Shown here: positions 13,786 to 45,392 of the stretch, in pieces
Position numbering within the stretch: the first letter of the stretch is position 1
How the letters are laid out: each line of letters starts with the position of its first letter
NCBI RefSeq assembly: GCF_036971445.1
Contig: NC_091470.1
Coordinates: forward strand, 248,310,001-248,374,000
Direction: 5' to 3'
DNA length: 64,000 nucleotides
Origin: Narcine bancroftii
Taxonomy: Eukaryota
Position numbers and translations under genes: made by a program
The notes under the pieces: model-generated
The model's input: only the letters and a program-made list of their open reading frames with translations
Told to the model about the DNA's origin: nothing
Database searches by the model: none

Positions 13786-14998
13786 TTAAAGATGATTAAC
13801 AGAGATCAATCCAATGTTCCTAGCTTTCTGTGGAAGTCTCTGCAAAGAATGTAAATTTCAGATCATTGTGGGTGCAGTCCCCACAACCCCCTGACCTCAC
13901 TCAGAACCTCATCTGTGTGCATGACTGTGGACACACATGTGCCTCTTTGGAATGTGAGGCTAGAAAAGACCACACAGTGGAAGAGATAGTAGAACTGGGT
14001 TTGTCTAGATGTGAGGTACTGAGGAGACTGCAAAATGATCAAGATGGAATCCAAGAGCAAGTTCACATTTTGTTAAAGGCTTGGTGAAGGAGTTGAATGC
14101 AGCAATGGGAACAGCTGCCAGAGGATTGTTTTGAAGTTGCAAGTGATTCCTCATTAGGAAGACAAGTTGACCAAATACTCTCTTCTAACTGTGATCAGCA
14201 GGTTGGGAGCAAAATAGTTTTTGCAGAGGATTTTGAATGTTACTTTCAAGGATTCCATCTTTTGTGCAGTTGTAGGTTTGAAGAGGACTTTTGAAAAGGA
14301 CTTTCTGGGGCATTATATCAGGACTTCACCAACACATGTCTAAAAATCCTACAGCTTCATTGATAAAGGGGGAGTGGTGTATTTCTCTATTTTATTGCCA
14401 AGCCCGGAGAAAAGGTACATTAAAAATATAGCAGCAGATTAAACCTCCCCTTAAACCTGCCCTGACATTCAATGTGATCATGGTTGATTTGTCTCAAGCC
14501 TCATCTTCTCCTTTGTTTCTTTTCTCAAATACCCACAAATCCCTAATCTTTCTAGGGTCAAGGATATCTTACCAACTGCCCTAACAGTGGAGAAATTGAA
14601 GGGTTGCCTTTGTCATGATTCTGCCTGCAATAGTAAACATAACATAAACCAGGCCACATGGCTCTTTACGATAGAGATGACCAATATTTATTGTGTAGGT
14701 AAAGTAAAAAGTGTCTCAAGTTATCCAGTCACTTTCATTATGCTGTATGTGGGATCATACTGTGTACAAATTGTCTACTACTCTTCCTGCATTACAAAAC
14801 AGGTCACACCTCAATAAGTCCATGCCCTACATTGAGGAGGCAGTGAAGATTCAACTATATTAGATTCAACTCCCCAGCAGAAGCAATCTCACTTGCTCTC
14901 CACTTAGCCCTGGATCACCTAGGCAAATAGCAAATCATACATCAGATTACTTTTCATCGTCTACAGCTCAACTTTCTACACCATTATACCCTCAGTAC

Positions 14999-16200
14999 CT
15001 TCTCCATTAACAATGGCGTGAAGCAAGGCTGTGTTCTCGCACCAACCCTCTTTTCAATCTTCTTCAGCATGATGCTGAACCAAGCCATGAAAGACCCCAA
15101 CAATGAAGACGCTGTTTACATCCGGTACCGCACGGATGGCAGTCTCTTAAATCTGAGGCGCCTGCAAGCTCACACCAAGACACAAGAGAAACTTGTCCGT
15201 GAACTACTCTTTGCAGATGATGCCGCTTTAGTTGCCCATTCAGAGCCAGCTCTTCAGCGCTTGACGTCCTGCTTTGCGGAAACTGCCAAAATGTTTGGCC
15301 TGGAAGTCAGCCTGAAGAAAACTGAGGTCCTCCATCAGCCAGCTCCCCACCATGACTACCAGCCCCCCCACATCTCCATCGGGCACACAAAACTCAAAAC
15401 GGTCAACCAGTTTACCTATCTCGGCTGCACCATTTCATCAGATGCAAGGATCGACAATGAGATAGACAACAGACTCGCCAAGCCAAATAGCGCCTTTGGA
15501 AAACTACACAAAAGAGTCTGGAAAAACAACCAACTGAAAAACCTCACAAAGATAAGCGTATACAGAGCCGTTGTCATACCCACACTCCTGTTCGGCTCCG
15601 AATCATGGGTCCTCTACCGGCACCACCTACGGCTCCTAGAACGCTTCCACCAGCGTTGTCTCCGCTCCATCCTCAACATCCATTGGAGCGCTTACACCCC
15701 TAACGTCGAAGTACTCGAGATGGCAGAGGTCGACAGCATCGAGTCCACGCTGCTGAAGATCCAGCTGCGCTGGATGGGTCACGTCTCCAGAATGGAGGAC
15801 CATCGCCTTCCCAAGATCGTGTTATATGGCGAGCTCTCCACTGGCCACCGTGACAGAGGTGCACCAAAGAAAAGGTACAAGGACTGCCTAAAGAAATCTC
15901 TTGGTGCCTGCCACATTGACCACCGCCAGTGGGCTGATAACGCCTCAAACCGTGCATCTTGGCGCCTCACAGTTTGGCGGGCAGCAACCTCCTTTGAAGA
16001 AGACCGCAGAGCCCACCTCACTGACAAAAGGCAAAGGAGGAAAAACCCAACACCCAACCCCAACCAACCAATTTTCCCTTGCAACCGCTGCAATCGTGTC
16101 TGCCTGTCCCGCATCGGACTTGTCAGCCACAAACGAGCCTGCAGCTGACGTGGACTTTTTACCCCCTCCATAAATCTTCGTCCGCGAAGCCAAGCCAAAG
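14999..16200 (+). mobile_element. Young RTE-clade LINE, copy 1, 5'-truncated (1202 bp)
   Basis: CpG-rich with an unbroken ORF; 3' end CTTCGTCCGCGAAGCCAAGCCAAAG; at most a 2-bp TSD (AC). Confidence 0.96.
15018..16148 (+). pseudogene. RTE ORF C-terminal half (RT motifs plus CxxC/H finger), no true start codon
   Basis: GVKQGCVLAPTLF, LLFADD, FTYLG, QLRWMGHV and CNRC...GLVSH. Confidence 0.93.
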
Positions 16201-17820
16201 ACTAATCAGAAAGTTTCAAAGTCTGGGCCTCTGTCCCTCTGGAATCTTGACTTCCTCATCGGAAGACCACAGTCAGTATGAAACCATGTCTCCTCCTTAC
16301 TGACCCTCAACACAGGGGCACCTTAAGGATGCATGCTTAGACCACTGCTGCACTCGTTTGACGCCCATGGCTGTCTGGATAAGCACAATTCAAATGCCAT
16401 CTACAAATTTGCTGATGACACCACAATGATCAGCAGAATCATAGCGGCATTGAGGAAATGTACAGAGATAGATCAGTTGGTTGAGTGGTGTCACAGCAGC
16501 AACCTTGCACTCAAAGTTTGCAAAACTAAGGAAATGAATTTGAACCTCAGGAAGGGGAAAACAGGAGGACACAAACCAGTCTCATCAAGGGGTCAGCAGT
16601 GGAAAGAGGTAAGAACTTCGAATGCCACTGTGCTAACATCTCTGAAGATCCATCCTGGGGCCTCCATGTCGATGCAACCATGAAGAAGTTTCATCAGTGA
16701 CTATATTCATGAGGAATTTGAGGACATTTGGGATGTAATCAAAGACTTGTGACAATTTCTACATGTGTACCCTGGATGGGCATTCTGACTGGTTGCATCA
16801 CTGTCCGGAATGGAGGTGCCAATACACAGGTCAGGAAAAGACTACAGAGTTGTGAACTCAGCCAATACCACCACGCGCCCAAGCCTTCGCTCCATTAAGG
16901 ACATCTATATGAGGCAGGGTCTTAAGAAAGCAGCCTTTATCTACACAGGTCACGCTCTCTTCGCTCTGCTACCACAGGAAAAAGGGGCCGGAGGCTGAAG
17001 ATGAACACACAATGGTACAGAAATAGCTTCTTCCCCTCTGCCATCCGATTTGTGAATGGACAATGCACCACAGACACTACCTCACTTTCCCTTTGATTTA
17101 TTTATTTTCTTTCAAGCATAATTTATAGCAAATTTGCACTGTGATACTGCTGCAAAACAAAGAATTTCATGACATGTTCATGACAATAAATTCTGATATT
17201 TCTTATATGTTATTGGGTGGGAGTCACATACAGGTAAATTATTCTTTACTTTATAACTCTTTGATGGGTTTATACTTAGTGCTCGTAATACTGGCTTCAT
17301 TTTAAAAATTAATTTCAGGTGTATTTAATTATTTTAAATTCCCAGTTACAGTGGTGGGATTTGATCTCTTGTCTTAGTATTATTGGTCCAGACTCTTTGG
17401 CTGCTACTTTAACTATCACTGAAAGCAACCAAAAAAAATTGTAAATCCTGGAATTTGGAAGGAAAAAAAAGAAACTTTTGATGAATTAAATGTGATCACG
17501 ACTTATTCAACTCTTCTTCTGTGCCAATTCTCCAACATGCTCAGCTCCCTGATAGAGCTTACTACTGCTCCACTGTACTTGGAGGAAGAACAAAAGGGCT
17601 GTCCTTGCCTGGGTCCCTTCTGCTGCAGCCCTATATGCAGAACCTCTTTCTGAACAAGGGTCAAGGTTAGCTCATGGAAGTCACGTAATCGGCAACTCAA
17701 TCATCACTGTTGACGAGGCTGAAGTTGATTCCAAGAATGCATCTAGAATGCCCCCAAAAGCAAAAATCGAATTGGAGATTCAGCCACACATAATAAATAA
17801 AATGTTCCATGGTTAACTTA

Positions 17821-19229
17821 TAGCAGGAGGAAGCCTGGCAACTATCGGCCTGTAAGTTTGACGTCTGTGGTAGGTAAATTAATGGAGAAAATTCTTAGAG
17901 ATAGTACTTATAAACATCTGGATAGACAGGGTCTGATCAGGAGCACTCAACATGGATTTGTGGGAGGAAGGTCATGTTTGACCAATCTGATTGAATATTT
18001 TGAAGAGGTGACTAGGAATGTGGATGAGGGTAGCGCAGTGGATGTTGTCTATATGGACTTCAGTAAGGCCTTCGATAAGGTACCACATGGAAGGTTAGTT
18101 AGGAACGTGCAGTCTTTAGGTATAAATTTTAAGATAGTCAAATGGATTGAACATTGGCTGAAAGGGAGAGGCCAGAGAGTGGTAGTGGATAATTGTCTGT
18201 CAGTTTGGAGGCCGGTGACTAGTGGTGTGCCTCAAGGATCTGTATTGGGCCCATTGTTGTTCGTTATATACATTAATGATCTAGATGATGGGGTGGTGAA
18301 TTGGATTAGTAAATATGCAGACGATACTAAGATAGGTGGAATAATGGATAATGAAGAAGGTTTTCAAGGATTGCAGAGGGATTTGGGCTGCTTAGAAAAG
18401 TGGGCTGAAAAATGGCAGATGGAATTTAATGCTGATAAGTGTGAGGTGCTTCATTTTGGTAAGAAGAATCAGAATAGGACATACGTGGTAAATGGGAGAG
18501 CATTGAGGAATACAGAAGAGCAGAAAGATTTAGGAGTAACGGTACATCGTTCCCTGAAGGTAGAAACTCACGTGAATAGGGTGGTGAAGAAGGCTTTTAG
18601 TATGCTGGCCTTTATCAATCATTGCATGGAATATAGGAGTTGGGAGGTGATGTTGAGATTGTATAAGACGTTGGTGCGGCCTAATTTGGAGTTCTGTGTG
18701 CAGTTCTGGTCGCCTAATTATAGGAAGGATATAAACAGAGTGGAGAGAGTGCAGAGAAGGTTTACCAGAATGTTACCTGGGTTTAAGCATCTAGAGTATA
18801 GGGAGAGATTGGACAGATTAGGTCTTTATTCTGTGGAGCGTAGAAGGTTGAGAGGGGATTTGATAGAAGTATTTAAGATTATGAAAGGGATAGACAGAGT
18901 GGATGTGGATAGACTATTTCCGTTAAGAGGAGGAAAGATTAAAACAAGAGGTCATGAGTTAAAAATTAAGGGGCAGAGGTTTAGAGGTAACATGAGGGGG
19001 AACTTCTTTACTCAGAGAGTGGTAGCCGTGTGGAATGATCTTCTGGGAGAAATAGTGGCGGCGGAGTCAATTGTATTATTTAAGAAAAGGTTGGACAGGT
19101 ATATGGATGAGAAGAAGATGGAGGGTTATGGGCATTGTGCAGGGAGGTGGGACTAGAAAGGGGTGTTTGGTTCGGTGCGGACTAGAAGGGCCTAATGGCC
19201 TGTTTCCGTGCTGTAATTGTTATGTTATG
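17821..19229 (+). mobile_element. Young CR1 LINE, 5'-truncated
   Basis: Begins at SRRKPGNYRPVSLTSV; short 3' UTR ending GTTATGTTATG. Confidence 0.96.
17858..19156 (+). pseudogene. CR1 ORF2 RT and C-terminal domain, 432 aa without stops
   Basis: QHGF, DFSKAFD, GVPQGSVLGP, YADD, KDLGV and ERVQRRFTRM motifs. Confidence 0.95.
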
Positions 19230-19489
19230 ATGCAATACCAGAGGTACTGACTTTGGCAGAAGTAGTGAGATGGGCAGACACGATGCCTCTGAAGGAATGC
19301 TCTTTTGCTTCTCTTTCTCTTCTTGGTAGGGACATTGGACCAGTGGCCCCTCTTTGTGTGCCATTACAGGCAGAGTAAAGCAAACACATTTTGTGCATTA
19401 TGTTCATGATAGTGAAGGAGACTTAAACCAAGATCCATTGGATGTTTCCTTCGAGGTTCTGGTTTGCTCAAAGAGTCACAATGAGTTAA

Positions 19490-20105
19490 AGGACTAGGTT
19501 GAATTCCCACACCAGGGACTTGTCTGGATGGAGGAAGTGACTCTACTTTCTCAGAAGCCTGAGGAAATTTGGCAAGTCTGCAAGGTCTCTGGCTAACTTT
19601 GACAGATGGATCATAGAAGATATCCTGTCCCGATGCATTACAACTTGGTTCAGGAACTGCTCTGCCCAATACAGCAAGAAACTGCAGAGAGTTGTGAACA
19701 TATTTTAGGCCATCAAGCAAACTAACCTCCCCTTCGTTTACCTCCTGCTGCCAACATATTAAAGGATCCAGCCCACCCTGATCACATTTATTTCTCCAGC
19801 CTTATATCAGGATGAGCTTGAAAACATGAGTCTCCAGATTCAAGCATACCTCTTTCCTGTTGTTATCAAACTCTTAAATGTACCTGTCATTGCTAAAAAG
19901 ATGATGCCCTCGTGCTGTTTTAACTAGACTTTGCACTTTGTCTTTGTAACACTATACCTTGTACACTTGGACCTACCTGTAACCTTACACCATGCAATTT
20001 TGTTTTATTTGGCCCTACCTACTGTACTTAAGTTTGAGTTAACATGCCTGGATAGTATGCAAATCAAGCTTCTCAATGAATGTTGGTACATATAACAATA
20101 AACAA
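19490..20105 (+). mobile_element. Rex1/Babar-like LINE 3' fragment
   Basis: CAAGAAACTGCAGAGAGTTGTGAAC and AAGGATCCAGCCCACCCTG; ends ACAATAAAC. Confidence 0.65.
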
Positions 20106-22143
20106 AACTATTCACAAGTCAATAACTTAGTGGAGAAACTGTTCTCATTTTCATGAGTTCTTTGCTCTCTCAAGTAGGTGTGAAAGATGACAACTGCAGT
20201 GAAAGGAGCCATGAGAGTTCTGACTGGTTTCTTGCCAACACTTATCTGTCAACCAGCAATGACCGGGCACAGATTATCTGGCCACTTATCACGTTGCTAT
20301 TGGAGGACGCTGTCTGTAAGCCGCACTTGCTGATTTACCAAAGGGTAAACTTAACAGCATTGGAAGAGCCCTGTGGTTACAACATATTTCTCAATAACTG
20401 TAGCATTTCTTCACCTCGAGATAGCAGCAGACATTCCACAGCTGGCTTAAACCACAGCAGTAGCTTTCCTATGACATTTAGTGTGCAGCAATTTAATGGG
20501 AGCATTAATCCATGGGTGTATCACAGTTCAGGATTAACACCTGTGTGCAGCGTCTTGCCAATGTGACAAAGTCTTTCAGACATTTAACAGCACCAGAGAT
20601 TTTTTTTTAATCTTGGATACACGGATGCTGTCTGGTTTTTCTGGGCATCTGATGGCTTGTGACAGAGTCTTCTGCAGTGGATGGGGTGAACAACATGAAT
20701 GGGCAATGTAAAAGAAGTATCTTTTGTCATTGTGACTGAATAGCTTAGTGTGTGATCACTCAATGTGTCAGTGACTGGTAGATGGATCTCTTCCTATACT
20801 GGGTCAACTTAATCAGCACATGACTCCTTCATCCTGCTACTGTGCGAGCCAGTCTGTTTGAATACCTTTGTTAACCCTTTCCACTTTCTCTCTCTCTGAT
20901 TTCATTATTTTGTCCTTTTGCTGATTTATTTTGGGTTTGCTTGTGAGGAAGGAGACTACAATTAACAGTACATAAAACTCTCAGCTGACACTTCCAATGC
21001 AGTACTGAGGGAATGTTAGAAGTTGACCTGTCCCAGGAGATATCAAACTGATGCTCCAACTGACCCCTAATGTGGATGTAAAAATATGAATGAATGAAAA
21101 AGAGTTCATTGTCATATACATAAGTACCATGAACAGATTCAGCAAAAGGTTGACTTGCTGCACCTTTCCTGTTATGTAAAACACATGAATGCAAATGTAG
21201 TATAATTAAGATGACATGAAAGGAAAAAAAGATAATAAATGCTAAAGAAAGAGAAGATATAATAAATAATATATATTCACAGTTGGTTCCTGATACACTG
21301 CAGAAACGTGTGGTATCAGTACAGACAGATCCTTGGTAGTCCTGTGGAAGTGTTATAGTTTAGGCGTTATGGGGAGATTCAAGAGCCTGATAGCTTTTCC
21401 CATGATACTATTTTAAACAGCAGAATCCCCCCCACTCCCCCCACCAACCCCCACCCAGACCAATATTTATCTTTCAAACAAAATCAGAGAACAAATAATC
21501 TTATTATCTTTTTTAAAAGTTTATGGCCCTTTCAGTGCACAAATTTGTTTCTGCGTTTCCAACATGACTGGAATCCAAAAGTACTACTCTGGCTGTAAGG
21601 CATTTTAGAATATTCTAAAAGGTGCCATTGAAACTCACATCAATCAGCTGTCTGCCTTGACAAGTCTGCTGTTCTGTCTCTTTGATTGTACTTTGGTCTG
21701 ACTTGTCTCTTGAGTTTGTTATTAACCCACCCCTTTCTATCCAAAGCTTCCACTTCTCCTTCTCCAAAATGATATTGTTTGAAATCTTATGTTATCACAA
21801 AAAAAGCTTATTGCCGATTTAATTAGCAATATGTAAAGAATTGCCACTTCTGCTAAAACTTCAGAACCCAGAAACCTTTATGAGGAACCTTTGTTTTCAT
21901 TTGGATTCTGTATAAATCATCTAAAATGCTAAGCCCTTATTACCTGCTGACTTAATATCAATAAAGCAGATATTTATGAGGTTGGTCACATACGACTGGG
22001 AATGTGGTCCAGCTGTGACTAGCCCAAGGTCTGGTGTGTGATCAGGGTCGTTGATCAGAATGTAGTGTGGAGTGGGAATGGATAGAGCTGGGTTTGGCCA
22101 AAGCAGGGATCCAGATGTTGTCAGTTTTGGTATAGAGTGGTCT

Positions 22144-22454
22144 AGGTGTGGCCAGAGCTGGGGTTTGGGTGTGGTCAGAGCCAGGTGTGGTCAGAGTCAA
22201 GCGTGGTCAGCACCAGGTTTGGTCAGAGCTAGGTATGGTCAGTGCTAGGTGTGGTTAGAGCCAGGCGTGGTCAGAGTCAGGTGTGGTCAGAGTCAGGTGA
22301 GGCCAGAGCCAGGTATAGTCAAAGTCAGGTGTAGTCAGAGCCAGATGCGGACAGAGCCAGCCATGGTCAGAATCAGATGTGATCAGAGTCAGATGTGGTC
22401 AGAGCTAGGCATGGTCAGAGTCAGATATGGTCAGAGTCAGATATGGTCAGAGCT
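22144..22454. repeat. Minisatellite, 16-bp unit GGTCAGAG(C/T)CAGGTGT, about 19 copies
   Basis: Visible periodic GGTCAGAG; it generates the repetitive ORF 22249-22584. Confidence 0.9.
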
Positions 22455-23269
22455 ATTGTTTGGAGTGTGGTCTCAGTGCCAATTCAATTGCCTGCAGTAT
22501 TTTCTGTTATTTCACTATTTTTATTTATATATTTTCTCTTGGGAACAGCATGGACTCAGTAGACAGAATGGCCTCTGTTCATAGCGCAACTTCCTATGAT
22601 TCTGAGGGCAGTATTGTTTTGGAGCATTTTGAAGACATCCATAGAAAATGAAAGGAATGGGAATTAACTTCCAGATAACTGGCCATTGTAGTTTTCTGAT
22701 GTAATATTGTAATCATACCATTTTAATTTTTTTAATTTTTCTTTAAATGTAATTCTCTATTGTATTCATGTTATAAAATTTTAAATAAAGTCTTCAGATA
22801 ACTGGACATCAGTTTTATCATTGGGGAGGTTAAAAAATATTTTGCCAAGTGGATATTTGCATCTTTTTTCAGCTCATATCAGTGAAAACCGAGAAGTTCA
22901 AGTAGCCCTGACTCAGGAATGGTGAGGAGAAGCTCACAAATGAAGATGCTCCTCATGAGTGGAAGGGAGGGTAACAGATTGAGCCATAGTTCCATGCTTG
23001 AGATACTTTAATGCCCAGCAGAACTCTGATAAACACTGTCTGCTTTTCAGAAATCCTGACGGTTCAGCGGTGCTGAGTCCTGCTCTGCTATCCATTCTCA
23101 TGTTCCCATTAATCAGACCCCATTTCCTATACTCTCTTCAAACTTTACTCGGACCCTGTTTCCTGCATTCTCTTCAAATTCACTGAAAAAATATTGTTTA
23201 ACATCTGAAAGAAAAGTGAATGAAAAGTGCGTTGGAATATTCATTGAAGTATTATGAGAAGATTTGGGT

Positions 23270-23655
23270 TAAGAAAGGATGTGCTGACATTGGAGAGGGT
23301 TCAGATGAGATCACAAGGACGACTCTGGGAATGAAAGGTTGTTTTCTAATGTGGGTGAGTCTAGATCAAGAGGCCACAACATCTGCTTAGAACACAGATC
23401 CGGAGGAATTTGTTTAGCCAGAGGATAGTAAATCTATGGAATTTGTTGCCACAGACAGTTGTGGAGGCCAGGTCATTGGGTGTATTTAAGGCAGATTGAT
23501 ATGTTCTTGATTAGCCAGAGCATCAAAGGTTATGTGGAGTAGACTGGACTGTGGGGCTGAGTGGGAAAATGGATCAGCTCATGATTAATTACAGGGGAAG
23601 ACTTGATGGGCTGACTGGCCTATTCTCCTTCTATTACATGGTTTTATGGTCTAAC
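23270..23655 (+). mobile_element. CR1 3' fragment with internal deletion
   Basis: AAGGATGTGCTGACATTGGAGAGGGTTCAG...TTTAGCCAGAGG...GACTTGATGGGCTG...TTATGGTCT; same subfamily as 51235-51548. Confidence 0.8.
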
Positions 23656-23739
23656 ATCCAATAATCTGGGATCTAGCATGTTAGATCATCAGAATTATAT
23701 CGTACATTAAAAATATTGACCTTCTTTAGTCAAGTCACA

Positions 23740-24085
23740 AGGAATTGTTGAATTATACAGTACAGAAACAGCTCTTTCAGCCCAGAGTCCATTTTCCTGG
23801 ATTTGGCTTGTATCCCTCTACACAGTTTCCATTCATGCACCTGTTCGAATGTCAATTAAATGTCATAATCGAACATACCTTAACCACTTCCACTGGAAGC
23901 ATGATCCACGTACCCATTATGCTCGATGTAAACTGACCCCTCAAGTCCCCTTTAAATTTTTTTCTCTCTTACCTTTAACCTATGACCTCTACTTGTAGAC
24001 TTTCCTACATTGGGGCAAGACTGTGGTCGTTCACGTTATCTATGCCCGTGGTGATTTAAAAAAAACTCTGCAAGGTCATCCCAAG
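23740..24085 (-). mobile_element. CR1 3' fragment
   Basis: TACAGAAACAGCTCTTTCAGCCC...CCACTTCCACTGGAAGC...CCTTTAACCTATGACCTCT. Confidence 0.65.
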
Positions 24086-24384
24086 GCAAACATTCATTTG
24101 CTGTTCAAGCCTTTTTCTTTGTTAAATGACATGTTTCCAATTTAGATTTACAGATTCCCTCTCTCTTTCCTCTGAGGCAATTTTCACATCAACATGTTTA
24201 AGGAGTCCAGTTGGCCCTTTGACTCCATGCTTGATGCCCCATATCTTCTTACGATCAGCAGAAATGCCATTACTTTTATCCTTCTCATTACTCTGTGGAA
24301 AATCTAATTCTTGCATTAAAAAAGACTTTTTTATTAATTTTACAACTGTACTCTCCAGTGCTGGGTTTATTACTACCCCAAGTC

Positions 24385-24632
24385 ACATGGTTAGTATAGC
24401 AGTTAGCTCAATGATTTTACAACTCCAGCAACTTGGGTTCGAATCCACTAGTGTCTGCAAGGAGTTTGTCCATTTTCCCCGTGATGGTGTGCTCTGGTTT
24501 CCTCCCACGTTCCAAAGGAGAATGGGCTAGAAGGTTAATTGGTCACATGGGTATAATTGGGCAGCATGGACTTGTGGTTCCAATGGGTCTGTTAAAATGC
24601 TGTATCTCTAAATTTAAAAAAATTAAAATTTA
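24385..24632 (+). mobile_element. tRNA-derived SINE
   Basis: A-box-like TAGTATAGCAGTTAG, B-box GGTTCGAATCC, and an AT-rich tail TAAATTTAAAAAAATTAAAATTT. Confidence 0.75.
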
Positions 24633-25129
24633 ACTGGCAAACAACTACGTACAAGTGTCACATAAAGTAACTAAGTAAAGAATGTTGTTTTGATACGATA
24701 AAATTCCTAATGTGCTTCACAAGCTACCATAAACTCTTGTTGGCATCAGGAAACTAATAGGCGAGAGTGGAACTGATAACCAAAATGTGGACAGAGTTAT
24801 GCTTTTAAAAGGGAAGACACCAGTAGTAACATTTTGGCAGGGAGTTTGGGTCCATACAATTGAAGGCACAACCCATGGTGATCCATTAAAAATCAGGGAT
24901 TCTCAAACTAGCCCAGCTTTGAAGGAACACTGAAATCTGGGAAGGTTGTAGAGCTGGAAGTGGTGGGGAAGGAGGTGAAAGAGAAAAAGAAGAAAAATAA
25001 GGGAATTAAACACAAAAAATGTTAATATTAAAGATTTGTTGGCTTGGAAGCCAATGAATGTCAACTGACAACTGGGATGAGTGAGCAGAACTTGGTTGAA
25101 GTAAGGGTGAAGTGAGGTCTAGGATCTTT

Positions 25130-25395
25130 TCACTCTGCTCTCTCCCCCTATCACTTTTCAGCTTCTTTCCCTTCTGGCTTCACCTGTATCCACTATTACC
25201 TCTTATTTTTAGCCTGTGTTCCTCCCATTTCTTCTTCCACCCTCCCCCTACCTTTGGACATCCTTGATCTTTGATGTTTTTGATGAAGGGCTTAGGCCCA
25301 AATTGTTGACTGCCTTTACTTCCTATAGATTCTGAGTTTCTCCAGCACTTTGGAGTACAGCACTGGACCTCAGTATCTACAGACTTTCTGTTTAC
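25130..25395 (+). mobile_element. Penelope-like terminal repeat remnant with decayed hammerhead-like motif
   Basis: Pyrimidine-rich tract followed by TTGATGAAGGGCTTAGGCCCAAATTGTTGAC...TGAGTTTCTCCAGCA...CAGACTTT. Confidence 0.6.
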
Positions 25396-25779
25396 TTCCG
25401 TAGATTTCAGAACTCAGTGGAAACGTTAGGCATAGAAGTATCAAAGAATTGGAAGGCAAGTTACGATATTAAATGTTTTTTGATATAATTATTTTCATGT
25501 CGCATTTTCTGAATTGATTATGAAATTAAGGAGGCCATTTGCTCCATTGAATTTGAATCAGCTCTCCGAGCAATCCTAATAGACTCATTCCCCAATGGAT
25601 TTCCCTGTAATATATTCCCTCTCACGTGCCCATTATTCTTCTACCATCCATATAATCTAGGGGTCATTTACCAACTAACACACTTTTGGGATGTAGAAGA
25701 AAATGCACACAATGACGGGGATATTGTGCAAACTCCACTCAAACACAGTACTGGAGGTCAGGAGCAATAGTCCCTAGAA

Positions 25780-27367
25780 CAGTGGCTCTCAACCTTTTTC
25801 TTTGCATTCACATACCTCTTTAAGTAATCCCTATGCCATAAGTACTTCTATGTTTAGTAAGGGATTGCTTAAGGTGGCATGTGAGTGGGAAGGAAAGGTT
25901 GAGAATTACTGCTCGAGACCCAATTGTTACTGAAATCTTTTGCTTGAGAAAAATTGTCATTGGCCCATTTCCTTTGGAGTTATAAAACCTTCTCCATTAA
26001 CAATGGCGTGAAGCAAGGCTGTGTTCTCGCACCAACCCTCTTTTCAATCTTCTTCAGCATGATGCTGAACCAAGCCATGAAAGACCCCAACAATGAAGAC
26101 GCTGTTTACATCCGGTACCGCACGGATGGCAGTCTCTTCAATCTGAGGCGCCTGCAAGCTCACACCAAGACACAAGAGAAACTTGTCCGTGAACTACTCT
26201 TTGCAGATGATGCCGCTTTAGTTGCCCATTCAGAGCCAGCTCTTCAGCGCTTGACGTCCTGCTTTGCGGAAACTGCCAAAATGTTTGGCCTGGAAGTCAG
26301 CCTGAAGAAAACTGAGGTCCTCCATCAGCCAGCTCCCCACCATGACTACCAGCCCCCCCACATCTCCATCGGGCACACAAAACTCAAAACGGTCAACCAG
26401 TTTACCTATCTCGGCTGCACCATTTCATCAGATGCAAGGATCGACAATGAGATAGACAACAGACTCGCCAAGGCAAATAGCGCCTTTGGAAGACTACACA
26501 AAAGAGTCTGGAAAAACAACCAACTGAAAAACCTCACAAAGATAAGCGTATACAGAGCCGTTGTCATACCCACACTCCTGTTCGGCTCCGAATCATGGGT
26601 CCTCTACCGGCACCACCTACGGCTCCTAGAACGCTTCCACCAGCGTTGTCTCCGCTCCATCCTCAACATCCATTGGAGCGCTTACACCCCTAATGTCGAA
26701 GTACTCGAGATGGCAGAGGTCGACAGCATCGAGTCCACGCTGCTGAAGATCCAGCTGCGCTGGATGGGTCACGTCTCCAGAATGGAGGACCATCGCCTTC
26801 CCAAGATCGTGTTATATGGCGAGCTCTCCACTGGCCACCGTGACAGAGGTGCACCAAAGAAAAGGTACAAGGACTGCCTAAAGAAATCTCTTGGTGCCTG
26901 CCACATTGACCACCGCCAGTGGGCTGATAACGCCTCAAACCGTGCATCTTGGCGCCTCACAGTTTGGCGGGCAGCAACCTCCTTTGAAGAAGACCGCAGA
27001 GCCCACCTCACTGACAAAAGGCAAAGGAGGAAAAACCCAACACCCAACCCCAACCAACCAATTTTCCCTTGCAACCGCTGCAATCGTGTCTGCCTGTCCT
27101 GCATCGGACTTGTCAGCCACAAATGAGCCTGCAGCTGACGTGGACTTTTTACCCCCTCCATAAATCTTCGTCCGCGAAGCCAAGCCAAAGAAGATAAAAC
27201 CGTGCACATAACAAGTCAATCAGGTAGGATTAAAACAGTGGTTTTCAAACATTTTATTTCCATCTACATCTAACTTTAAGCAATCCCTTACTAATCACAG
27301 AGGACCTATGGCATAGGGAATACTTAAAGTGGTATGTGAGTGGAAAGAAAAAAGTTGAGAACCACTG
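25780..27367. mobile_element. hAT/Charlie-like MITE of two inverted 132-bp self-palindromic units, interrupted by RTE copy 2
   Basis: Left unit 25780-25911 CAGTGGCTCTCAACC...GGTTGAGAATTACTG; right unit 27236-27367 CAGTGGTTTTCAAAC...GTTGAGAACCACTG. Confidence 0.8.
25990..27193 (+). mobile_element. Young RTE-clade LINE, copy 2 (1204 bp), 8-bp TSD ATAAAACC
   Basis: TSD at 25982-25989 and 27194-27201. Colinear with copy 1 at offset 10990 with about 6 substitutions, including a CGA>TGA stop at the ORF end. Confidence 0.96.
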
Positions 27368-27891: not shown

Positions 27892-28364
27892 TTTCTTCTT
27901 CTTTGGCTTGGCTTCGCGGACGAAGATTTATGGAGGGGGTAAAAAGTCCACGTCAGCTGCAGGCTCGTTTGTGGCTGACCAGTCCGATGCGGGACAGGCA
28001 GACACAATTGCAGCGGTTGCAAGGGAAAATTGGTTGGTTGGGGTTGGGTGTTGGGTTTTTCCTCCTTTGCCTTTTGTCAGTGAGGTGGGCTCTGCGGTCT
28101 TCTTCAAAGGAGGCTGCTGCCCGCCAAACTGTGAGGCGCCAAGATGCACGGTTTGAGGCGTTATCAGCCCACTGGCGGTGGTCAATGTGGCAGGCACCAA
28201 GAGATTTCTTTAGGCAGTCCTTGTACCTTTTCTTTGGTGCACCTCTGTCACGGTGGCCAGTGGAGAGCTCGCCATATAATACGATCTTGGGAAGGCGATG
28301 GTCCTCCATTCTGGAGACGTGACCCATCCAGCGCAGCTGGATCTTCAGCAGCGTGGACTCGATG
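27892..28364 (-). mobile_element. Young RTE-clade LINE, copy 3 (3' ~470 bp)
   Basis: Reverse complement of the same 3' end with a (GAA)3 tail; ORF from IESTLLKIQLRW to HKRACS. Confidence 0.96.
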
Positions 28365-43884: not shown

Positions 43885-44129
43885 AAGGCCGAGATCGAAA
43901 AGTTTTGAAGTCAGTAAGCTGGTTTCATTAGGCTTATCAGATTCAGCTTTTGTTAGAAACGATAATCATAGAGTCATACAGCACAGAAATAGGTCCTTCA
44001 TGCACAAGGTGACCATTGATACCATTTCCATTTGGTTGTTCTTGGTCCATCATCTTACAAGCCTTGGTGACTCAAGGGTCCAGCTAGATTAGTGAGAGCC
44101 TCTGTCTCCACCAACCCCTCAGGCACTGT
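43885..44129 (-). repeat. Left arm of a 245-bp inverted repeat (derived copy)
   Basis: Reverse complement of 45148-45392; about 13 mismatches and no indels by hand count. Confidence 0.95.
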
Positions 44130-45147: not shown

Positions 45148-45392
45148 ACAGTGCCTGAGGGGTTGGTGGAGACAGAGGCTCTCACTAATCTAGCTGGACC
45201 CTTGAGTCATCAAGGCTTGTAAGATGATGGACCAAGAGCAACCAAATGGAAATGGTATCAACGGTCGCCTTGTGCATGAAGGGCCTATTTCTGTGCTATA
45301 TGACTCTATGATTATTGTTTCTAGCATAAGCTGAATCTGATAAGCCTAATGAAACCAGCTTACCGGCATCAAAACTTTTCAATCTCGGCCTT
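45148..45392 (+). repeat. Right arm of the inverted repeat (CR1 3' end plus about 80 bp of non-TE flank; source copy)
   Basis: CR1 homology continues upstream of this arm to about 45060, so this is the native locus. Confidence 0.93.

What the first reader, a model, noticed from the sequence alone, without database searches (positions are those of the whole stretch)
14999..27193. Two separate RTE insertions share the same 5' truncation point
Seen: copies 1 (14999-16200) and 2 (25990-27193) are colinear, about 99.5% identical, and both start at (C)TTCTCCATTAACAATGGC in mid-RT. Their targets are unrelated: a Rex-type LINE with a 2-bp AC overlap, and a hAT MITE with TSD ATAAAACC. Flanks are not shared, so this is not a segmental duplication. 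Known: 5' truncation in target-primed reverse transcription is usually scattered along the element. Inference: there may be a fixed 1.2-kb non-autonomous RTE derivative with its own master copy, a defined RNA 5' end (internal start, cleavage or strong RT stop), or local copying of one insertion from the other. Both junctions show ACC, so microhomology may contribute.
Basis: partly seen in the sequence, partly recalled or inferred. Interest (0 to 1): 0.7.

Follow-up and report, generated by a model that had tools for sequence, protein, structure and literature searches.

The report
Two RTE copies, likely coincidental truncation
Two neighbouring copies of a very abundant jumping gene are cut short at the same spot, but no excess of copies across the genome breaks there, so this is likely a coincidence rather than a special short element, although copying from the neighbour during insertion is not excluded.

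Summary
Two 1.2-kb copies of an RTE-type LINE, 11 kb apart and 99.5% identical, both match the family up to the same base and sit in unrelated, intact targets. The proposed fixed 1.2-kb derivative or defined RNA end is refuted. The family has at least 75,809 copies; 18,185 read through this point and only about 50 break there, near the local mean of about 40 per base. Those breaks fall in several subfamilies, and 13 of 30 fetched are inversion joints. In 96 consecutive copies the 5' ends are spread out. Chance alone predicts 24-158 such windows in this genome.

What remains odd is that both copies also carry the same young haplotype, for which chance predicts only 0.07-0.29 such pairs within 11 kb. 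I searched for other twins with different flanks and found none: 0 of 175, 0 of 14 and 0 of 13 close pairs. That only bounds the rate below about 2%.

Best reading: independent insertions joined by 1-2 bp microhomology (0.58). Rivals: junction inherited from the neighbour (0.22) or one RNA used twice (0.14). The scan noted neighbour-shared truncation before, in Tx1 stacks and a lizard CR1.

The parts
14999..16201 (+). RTE-type LINE copy 1, 5'-truncated in mid-RT, shortest tail (..CCAAAGA); young marker-less haplotype with 3 private changes (+150, +484, +503)
15000..16145 (+). Open 382-aa C-terminal fragment of the element's ORF (second half of the RT domain onward)
   Evidence: Pfam RVT_1, profile 115-205 of 205, E 8e-13
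14997..14998 (+). AC, repeated at 16201-16202: 2-bp target duplication or overlap of copy 1
   Evidence: host LINE collinear across the site
16203..17197 (+). Right part of an old host LINE interrupted by copy 1 (its left part ends at 14998); clade not tested
   Evidence: self-BLAST at about 70% to other window copies
25990..27193 (+). RTE-type LINE copy 2, same apparent junction and haplotype; 3 changes, all C>T at CpG (+705, +1111, +1135; the last makes a stop)
25982..25989 (+). Left TSD ATAAAACC of copy 2; its last CC is also element -2/-1 (2-bp microhomology)
27194..27201 (+). Right TSD ATAAAACC of copy 2
25780..27367 (.). MITE with about 96-bp terminal inverted repeats, interrupted by copy 2
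   Evidence: inverted match 25780-25875 / 27273-27367 at 87.5%; empty-site copies
27897..28364 (-). Copy 3 of the same family, broken at +738, other subfamily (822A, 988G, 1122G): a local control with a different junction

Best explanation
The two copies are likely independent target-primed insertions of one young burst of a very abundant RTE-type LINE, whose reverse transcription likely stopped by chance within the same two or three bases. Shown: both are bounded exactly by the element's tail and by their own intact targets; the family is huge; this base is no hotspot. Inferred: each cDNA ended at about -2/-1 and was sealed to its own target by 1-2 bp of microhomology (target ..AC with C; target ..AAAACC with CC). 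This blurs two or three possible end points into one apparent junction. The shared haplotype is inferred to reflect the same burst. The six differences are inferred to be post-insertion changes.
For: At least 75,809 copies, about one per 44 kb. 18,185 read through the site against 235 with another base at -3; 8 of 30 of those inspected are true breaks. A stricter pattern gives 35 in the genome, 29 of 30 fetched being real breaks, so about 50 in all. The surrounding 85 bases give 1,744 matches, about 40 breaks per base, and 0 of the 100 listed break at this base (read by eye). Breaks at the site occur in several subfamilies from 0 to 5.3% divergence. In 96 consecutive copies, 2 of 4,560 pairs share a junction exactly and 13 within 2 bases, which gives 24-158 windows per genome by chance. 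No twin with different flanks in 0 of 175 near pairs, 0 of 14 close pairs in five lists of 100 truncated copies or 0 of 13 close same-haplotype pairs. The copies share no derived change. Short or absent TSDs are common: 26 of 44 at 3 bp or less by a strict rule that misses some TSDs.
Against: Both copies carry the same marker-less young haplotype, whose diagnostic word occurs 5,370 times. For that haplotype chance predicts only 0.07-0.29 same-junction pairs within 11 kb in the whole genome, or a few if all young haplotypes are counted (my estimate). Both lie on the same strand and both have A at -3. My twin search covered only about 400 effective copies, so a local process below about 2% would have been missed.
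Confidence: 0.58

Rival explanations
1. Junction inherited from the neighbour. A new cDNA would pair with the resident copy 11 kb away, be trimmed or extended to the end of homology (the resident's 5' junction), pick up about one flank base, and then join its own target through ACC or AC. The trimming step (a flap nuclease) is my inference from recalled repair biology.
For: Both junctions read ACC|TTC, which gives a 2-bp (copy 1) or 3-bp (copy 2) microhomology if the other copy was the template, one base more than with the element itself. L1 cDNA pairing with nearby homologous DNA is described (bioRxiv 2024.08.27.596794, passage), and homology promotes recombination of L1 cDNAs (bioRxiv 2025.09.17.676864, abstract and Discussion). 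Unreviewed scan notes report inherited truncation points in Tx1 stacks and in a CR1 pair 22 kb apart.
Against: No base here is diagnostic of the donor: the A at -3 belongs to each copy's own target. No derived change is shared, so the donor had to be brand new. The templated L1 insertions described use templates under 250 bp within 15 bp of the site. No second case in the twin searches.
Confidence: 0.22
2. One RNA, two insertions. A 5'-shortened RNA would be reverse-transcribed twice at nearby sites in one germ cell, or two concurrent cDNAs would pair and equalise their ends, giving linked twins of the same haplotype and age.
For: Explains junction, haplotype, equal age (3 changes each) and proximity at once. 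Pfam finds no RNase H domain in a long copy, so the RNA could survive (inference). Concurrent L1 intermediates occur and recombine.
Against: 0 of 13 close same-haplotype pairs share a junction. My paper searches found no such re-use described. The synchronous L1 events described give rearrangements, whereas both targets here are intact.
Confidence: 0.14
3. A fixed 1.2-kb non-autonomous derivative, or a defined RNA 5' end or RT stop at this base.
For: Only the pair itself. The site's rate, about 50 against about 40 per base, may be slightly above the local mean.
Against: About 50 of about 18,400 copies reaching the site break there. They are spread over subfamilies, and 13 of 30 are inversion joints. 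0 of 29 best relatives, 0 of 96 consecutive copies and 0 of 100 local breaks end here. Positions +10 to +13 hold about 15 of those 100.
Confidence: 0.02
4. Assembly artefact: one copy wrongly placed or polished from the other.
For: No contig bridging a junction or spanning the stretch was listed in the runs available.
Against: Six differences with a biological pattern (three CpG transitions in copy 2), different tails, and precise target ends at both sites. Unique flanks lie at single-copy depth, 6-12.
Confidence: 0.04

Closest known systems
5'-truncated LINE copies joined by microhomology (PMC4245944, passages seen; Zingler 2005 and Ichiyanagi and Okada 2008 seen only as cited there)
   Same: Intact 3' tail, variable 5' truncation, 1-2 bp microhomology at the 5' junction, target duplication.
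   Different: TSDs of 8 and 2 bp are shorter than the 10-12 bp peak quoted for RTE; short TSDs are common in this family.
RTE-clade LINEs (Bov-B and RTE-1 type; names recalled; PMC6007223, passages seen)
   Same: One long frame with endonuclease and RT, A-rich microsatellite-like tail, TSD of copy 2 starting with A as described for animal RTEs.
   Different: Clade placement by a tree was not done.
Templated or chimeric L1 insertions and recombining L1 cDNAs (bioRxiv 2024.08.27.596794, passages; bioRxiv 2025.09.17.676864, abstract and Discussion)
   Same: Would give a new copy that borrows sequence from nearby DNA or from another cDNA.
   Different: No borrowed flank and no rearrangement here; the distance is 11 kb, not under 15 bp.
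RTE-derived non-autonomous elements and SINE bodies (PMC5786205, search listing and start of abstract only)
   Different: Those are amplified units with fixed ends; this end is not amplified.

Membership tests
RTE-clade LINE | Single long ORF with apurinic-type endonuclease followed by RT | tested here: met
   1,159-codon stop-free frame in natural long copy L148 with Exo_endo_phos and RVT_1; that RTE has one ORF is recalled
RTE-clade LINE | Short microsatellite-like 3' tail instead of poly(A) | tested here: met
   (GAA/GAAA)n-type tails after GCCAAGCCAAA; trait described in PMC6007223
RTE-clade LINE | TSD peak at 10-12 bp | tested here: inconclusive
   16 of 44 at 5 bp or more, 5 of 44 at 10-12 bp, by a strict rule that misses TSDs followed by extra bases
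RTE-clade LINE | RT groups with RTE references in a tree | not tested
   no reference set was fetched; the RTE label rests on architecture, tail and recall
Non-autonomous LINE derivative with its own master | Many copies share one fixed 5' end | tested here: not met
   about 50 of about 18,400 copies, near the local mean
Non-autonomous LINE derivative with its own master | Copies with that end form one lineage with shared markers | tested here: not met
   several subfamilies, 0-5.3% divergence
Segmental duplication | Shared flanks | tested here: not met
   alignment limited to the element plus ACC
Neighbour-templated insertion | Donor flank bases or donor-private changes in the recipient | tested here: inconclusive
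   no shared derived change; the one shared flank base is also each copy's own target base
Simultaneous twin insertion | The two insertions always co-segregate | not testable with these tools
   only one sample of the organism was served, as contigs

The most novel reading that the evidence does not exclude
A dispersed, non-site-specific RTE LINE can take its 5' end from a sister copy kilobases away, either by pairing its cDNA with a fresh neighbour or by using one RNA twice in one germ cell. Linked twins with identical truncation and unrelated targets would then be a rare fossil of how 5' junctions are sealed.
Probability: 0.33. Interest if true: 0.6.

Novelty: already known. Interest (0 to 1): 0.2.

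Why it matters
As it stands it is ordinary: a caution that in a family of about 76,000 copies two neighbours will sometimes share a break, and that a shared truncation does not imply a defined short element. If the local mechanism were real, it would show cDNA ends sampling homologous DNA, or RNA re-use, over about 10 kb in the germ line. This genome, with more than 100,000 neighbouring pairs (my estimate from density), would allow a direct test by distance.

Tried and rejected
Close pairs in the list looked like further twins; all 8 copies of the four pairs fetched were read-through point mutants. Same-junction neighbours at C1:115.87-115.94 Mb, 116.08/116.09 Mb, 217.53/217.67 Mb and on C108/C121 share their flanks and are tandem or segmental duplications; they were left out of the count of 14 pairs. 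A pair one base apart at C1:140.27/140.30 Mb is only 93.9% identical.

An apparent pile-up of ends at -1050 to -1170 among the first 29 loci did not recur in 96 consecutive copies. Position +705 as a lineage marker separating the copies was rejected: T occurs in 2 of 69 young copies and is a CpG site. Copy 1's target matches the element upstream at 5 of 8 with a one-base slip, but 133 plain junctions show no general excess of slipped homology, so I give it no weight. Copy 1's short TSD as a sign of DNA-level copying was rejected.

Laying contigs from four runs of the probable source sample and one of another organism showed no bridged junction and no empty allele; this says nothing either way. 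Paper searches for re-use of one RNA or for fixed truncated RTE derivatives returned 0, 14, 1 and 3 papers, none describing this case as far as titles, abstracts and the passages read show. Supplements of the bioRxiv preprints are closed and might hold longer-range templated cases.

Full report
Observation. The two copies align over 1,205 bases at 99.50% without gaps, and nothing outside the element is shared except ACC. With T at 25990 as +1, longer relatives read CTGAACCC|TTCTCC. Both window copies match at -1 and -2 and differ at -3. Copy 2 has the 8-bp duplication ATAAAACC and interrupts a MITE whose other copies run across the site. Copy 1 has a 2-bp AC repeat in an old LINE that is collinear across the site in three other copies. 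Both are therefore ordinary, precisely bounded insertions. A third copy at 27897-28364 breaks at +738.

The family. The window is G000:C5:248,310,001-248,374,000 in a 3.33-Gb genome. A 20-base word near the 3' end occurs 75,809 times. Long copies extend at least 2.2-2.3 kb upstream of the site. One natural copy has a 1,159-codon frame with endonuclease and RT domains. Tails are GAA/GAAA repeats. I call it RTE-type from architecture, tail and recall; no tree was built.

Is the site a defined end? No. None of the 29 best relatives stops there. 18,185 copies read through; 235 have another base at -3, and 8 of the 30 inspected are true breaks, the rest being mutants. A stricter pattern that excludes mutants finds 35 in the genome. 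Of 30 fetched, 29 are real breaks, one of them copy 1. Correcting for the pattern's filter gives about 50. A pattern covering -44 to +41 gives 1,744 matches, about 40 breaks per base after correction; the two anchor words differ, so the ratio is rough. None of the 100 listed breaks at this base, while about 15 fall at +10 to +13 (read by eye). The breaks at the site belong to several subfamilies, 0-5.3% from the reference copy, and 13 of 30 are inversion joints. In the first 96 of the 100 copies listed (80 of 83 regions fetched), 5' ends run from +1049 to beyond -1499 and none is at -2.

How likely is the pair by chance? Among those 96 copies, 2 of 4,560 pairs share a junction exactly and 13 within two bases; pairs of copies running past the reference end were not counted as matches. 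At about 1.06 pairs per 64-kb window this gives 24-158 windows of about 52,000. The scan already has notes on 193 windows of this genome, so one hit is not remarkable. Against this, both copies share a marker-less young haplotype. Copy 2's three differences are CpG transitions, copy 1's three are private, and none is shared. That haplotype's word occurs 5,370 times. Chance then predicts 0.07-0.29 same-junction pairs of this haplotype within 11 kb, and a few if the larger young subfamily is included (my estimate). This residue is why I do not put chance above 0.6.

Search for other twins. Result: 0 of 175 pairs within 64 kb among the 96 consecutive copies. In five lists of 100 truncated copies from different parts of the element, 14 close pairs had different junctions (read by eye), one of them by a single base but at 93.9% identity. 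The same-junction neighbours in those lists shared flanks and are duplications; they were set aside. Of 13 close pairs among the first 100 carriers of the pair's own haplotype word, none shares a junction; two further pairs at 56 and 61 kb were not fetched. Allowing for pattern losses this tests about 400 copies and bounds twins below about 2%. It cannot exclude a rarer process.

Mechanism. Best reading (0.58): two independent target-primed events from the same burst. Truncation with microhomology at the 5' junction is the described norm for LINEs (PMC4245944, passages). Here target ..AC pairs with one C and target ..AAAACC with CC, which merges ends at -2, -1 and +1 into one apparent junction (inferred). 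Short duplications such as copy 1's are common: 26 of 44 young copies have 3 bp or less by a strict rule that misses some TSDs.

Rival 1 (0.22): the new cDNA paired with the fresh neighbour and ended at its junction. ACC would then give one more paired base, but no donor-specific base exists. The templated L1 cases I read use templates within 15 bp of the site (bioRxiv 2024.08.27.596794, passages). Homology does promote cDNA recombination (bioRxiv 2025.09.17.676864, abstract and Discussion). I took this rival more seriously after reading unreviewed scan notes on Tx1 stacks and a lizard CR1 pair; I tested the pattern in this genome, not their data. Rival 2 (0.14): one RNA or two concurrent cDNAs in one cell. 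It fits everything about this pair but has no second example here and none in my searches. A fixed derivative (0.02) and an assembly artefact (0.04; not testable) come last.

Verdict. A whole-genome junction catalogue would settle it.

Noticed in passing
G000, loci L141-L220 and L081-L110: 5' inversions of twin-priming geometry are frequent in this RTE family: at least 10 of 96 consecutive copies and 13 of 30 junctions at the studied site. Earlier scan notes report the same.
   Followed up: partly
element positions +10 to +13, -6/-7 and about -29 (window 15009-15012 for the first): Base-scale preferences in 5' break points: about 15 of 100 breaks in an 85-base stretch fall at +10 to +13 (by eye); similar micro-peaks appear. 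Cause unknown.
   Followed up: no
L037 (G000:C1:110,742,935): A copy broken at this same site whose target itself reads TTCTCCATTAACAATG, a 16-base match to the element: a clear case of target homology fixing the junction.
   Followed up: no
L230/L231 and L232 (G000:C1:116.08-116.09 Mb and 35.74 Mb): The same inversion joint (about -205 to +370) occurs at two loci 80 Mb apart with different flanks and different outer ends; possibly a recurrent microhomology joint.
   Followed up: partly
G000:C1:115.87-116.09 Mb (L230, L231, L235, L236): RTE copies inserted into a satellite of about 78-bp period and amplified with it into an array of at least six copies.
   Followed up: partly
window 25780-27367; L149, L194: The MITE hit by copy 2 is also the target of other RTE copies; its usual sequence at this site, TGAAACC, resembles the element's TGAACCC just upstream of the junction.
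   Followed up: no
window 43885-44129 and 45148-45392: 245-bp inverted repeat at 94.7% identity bounding about 1.5 kb; probably a DNA transposon.
   Followed up: no
window 22168-22453: Short tandem repeat with offsets of 96, 160 and 208 bases.
   Followed up: no
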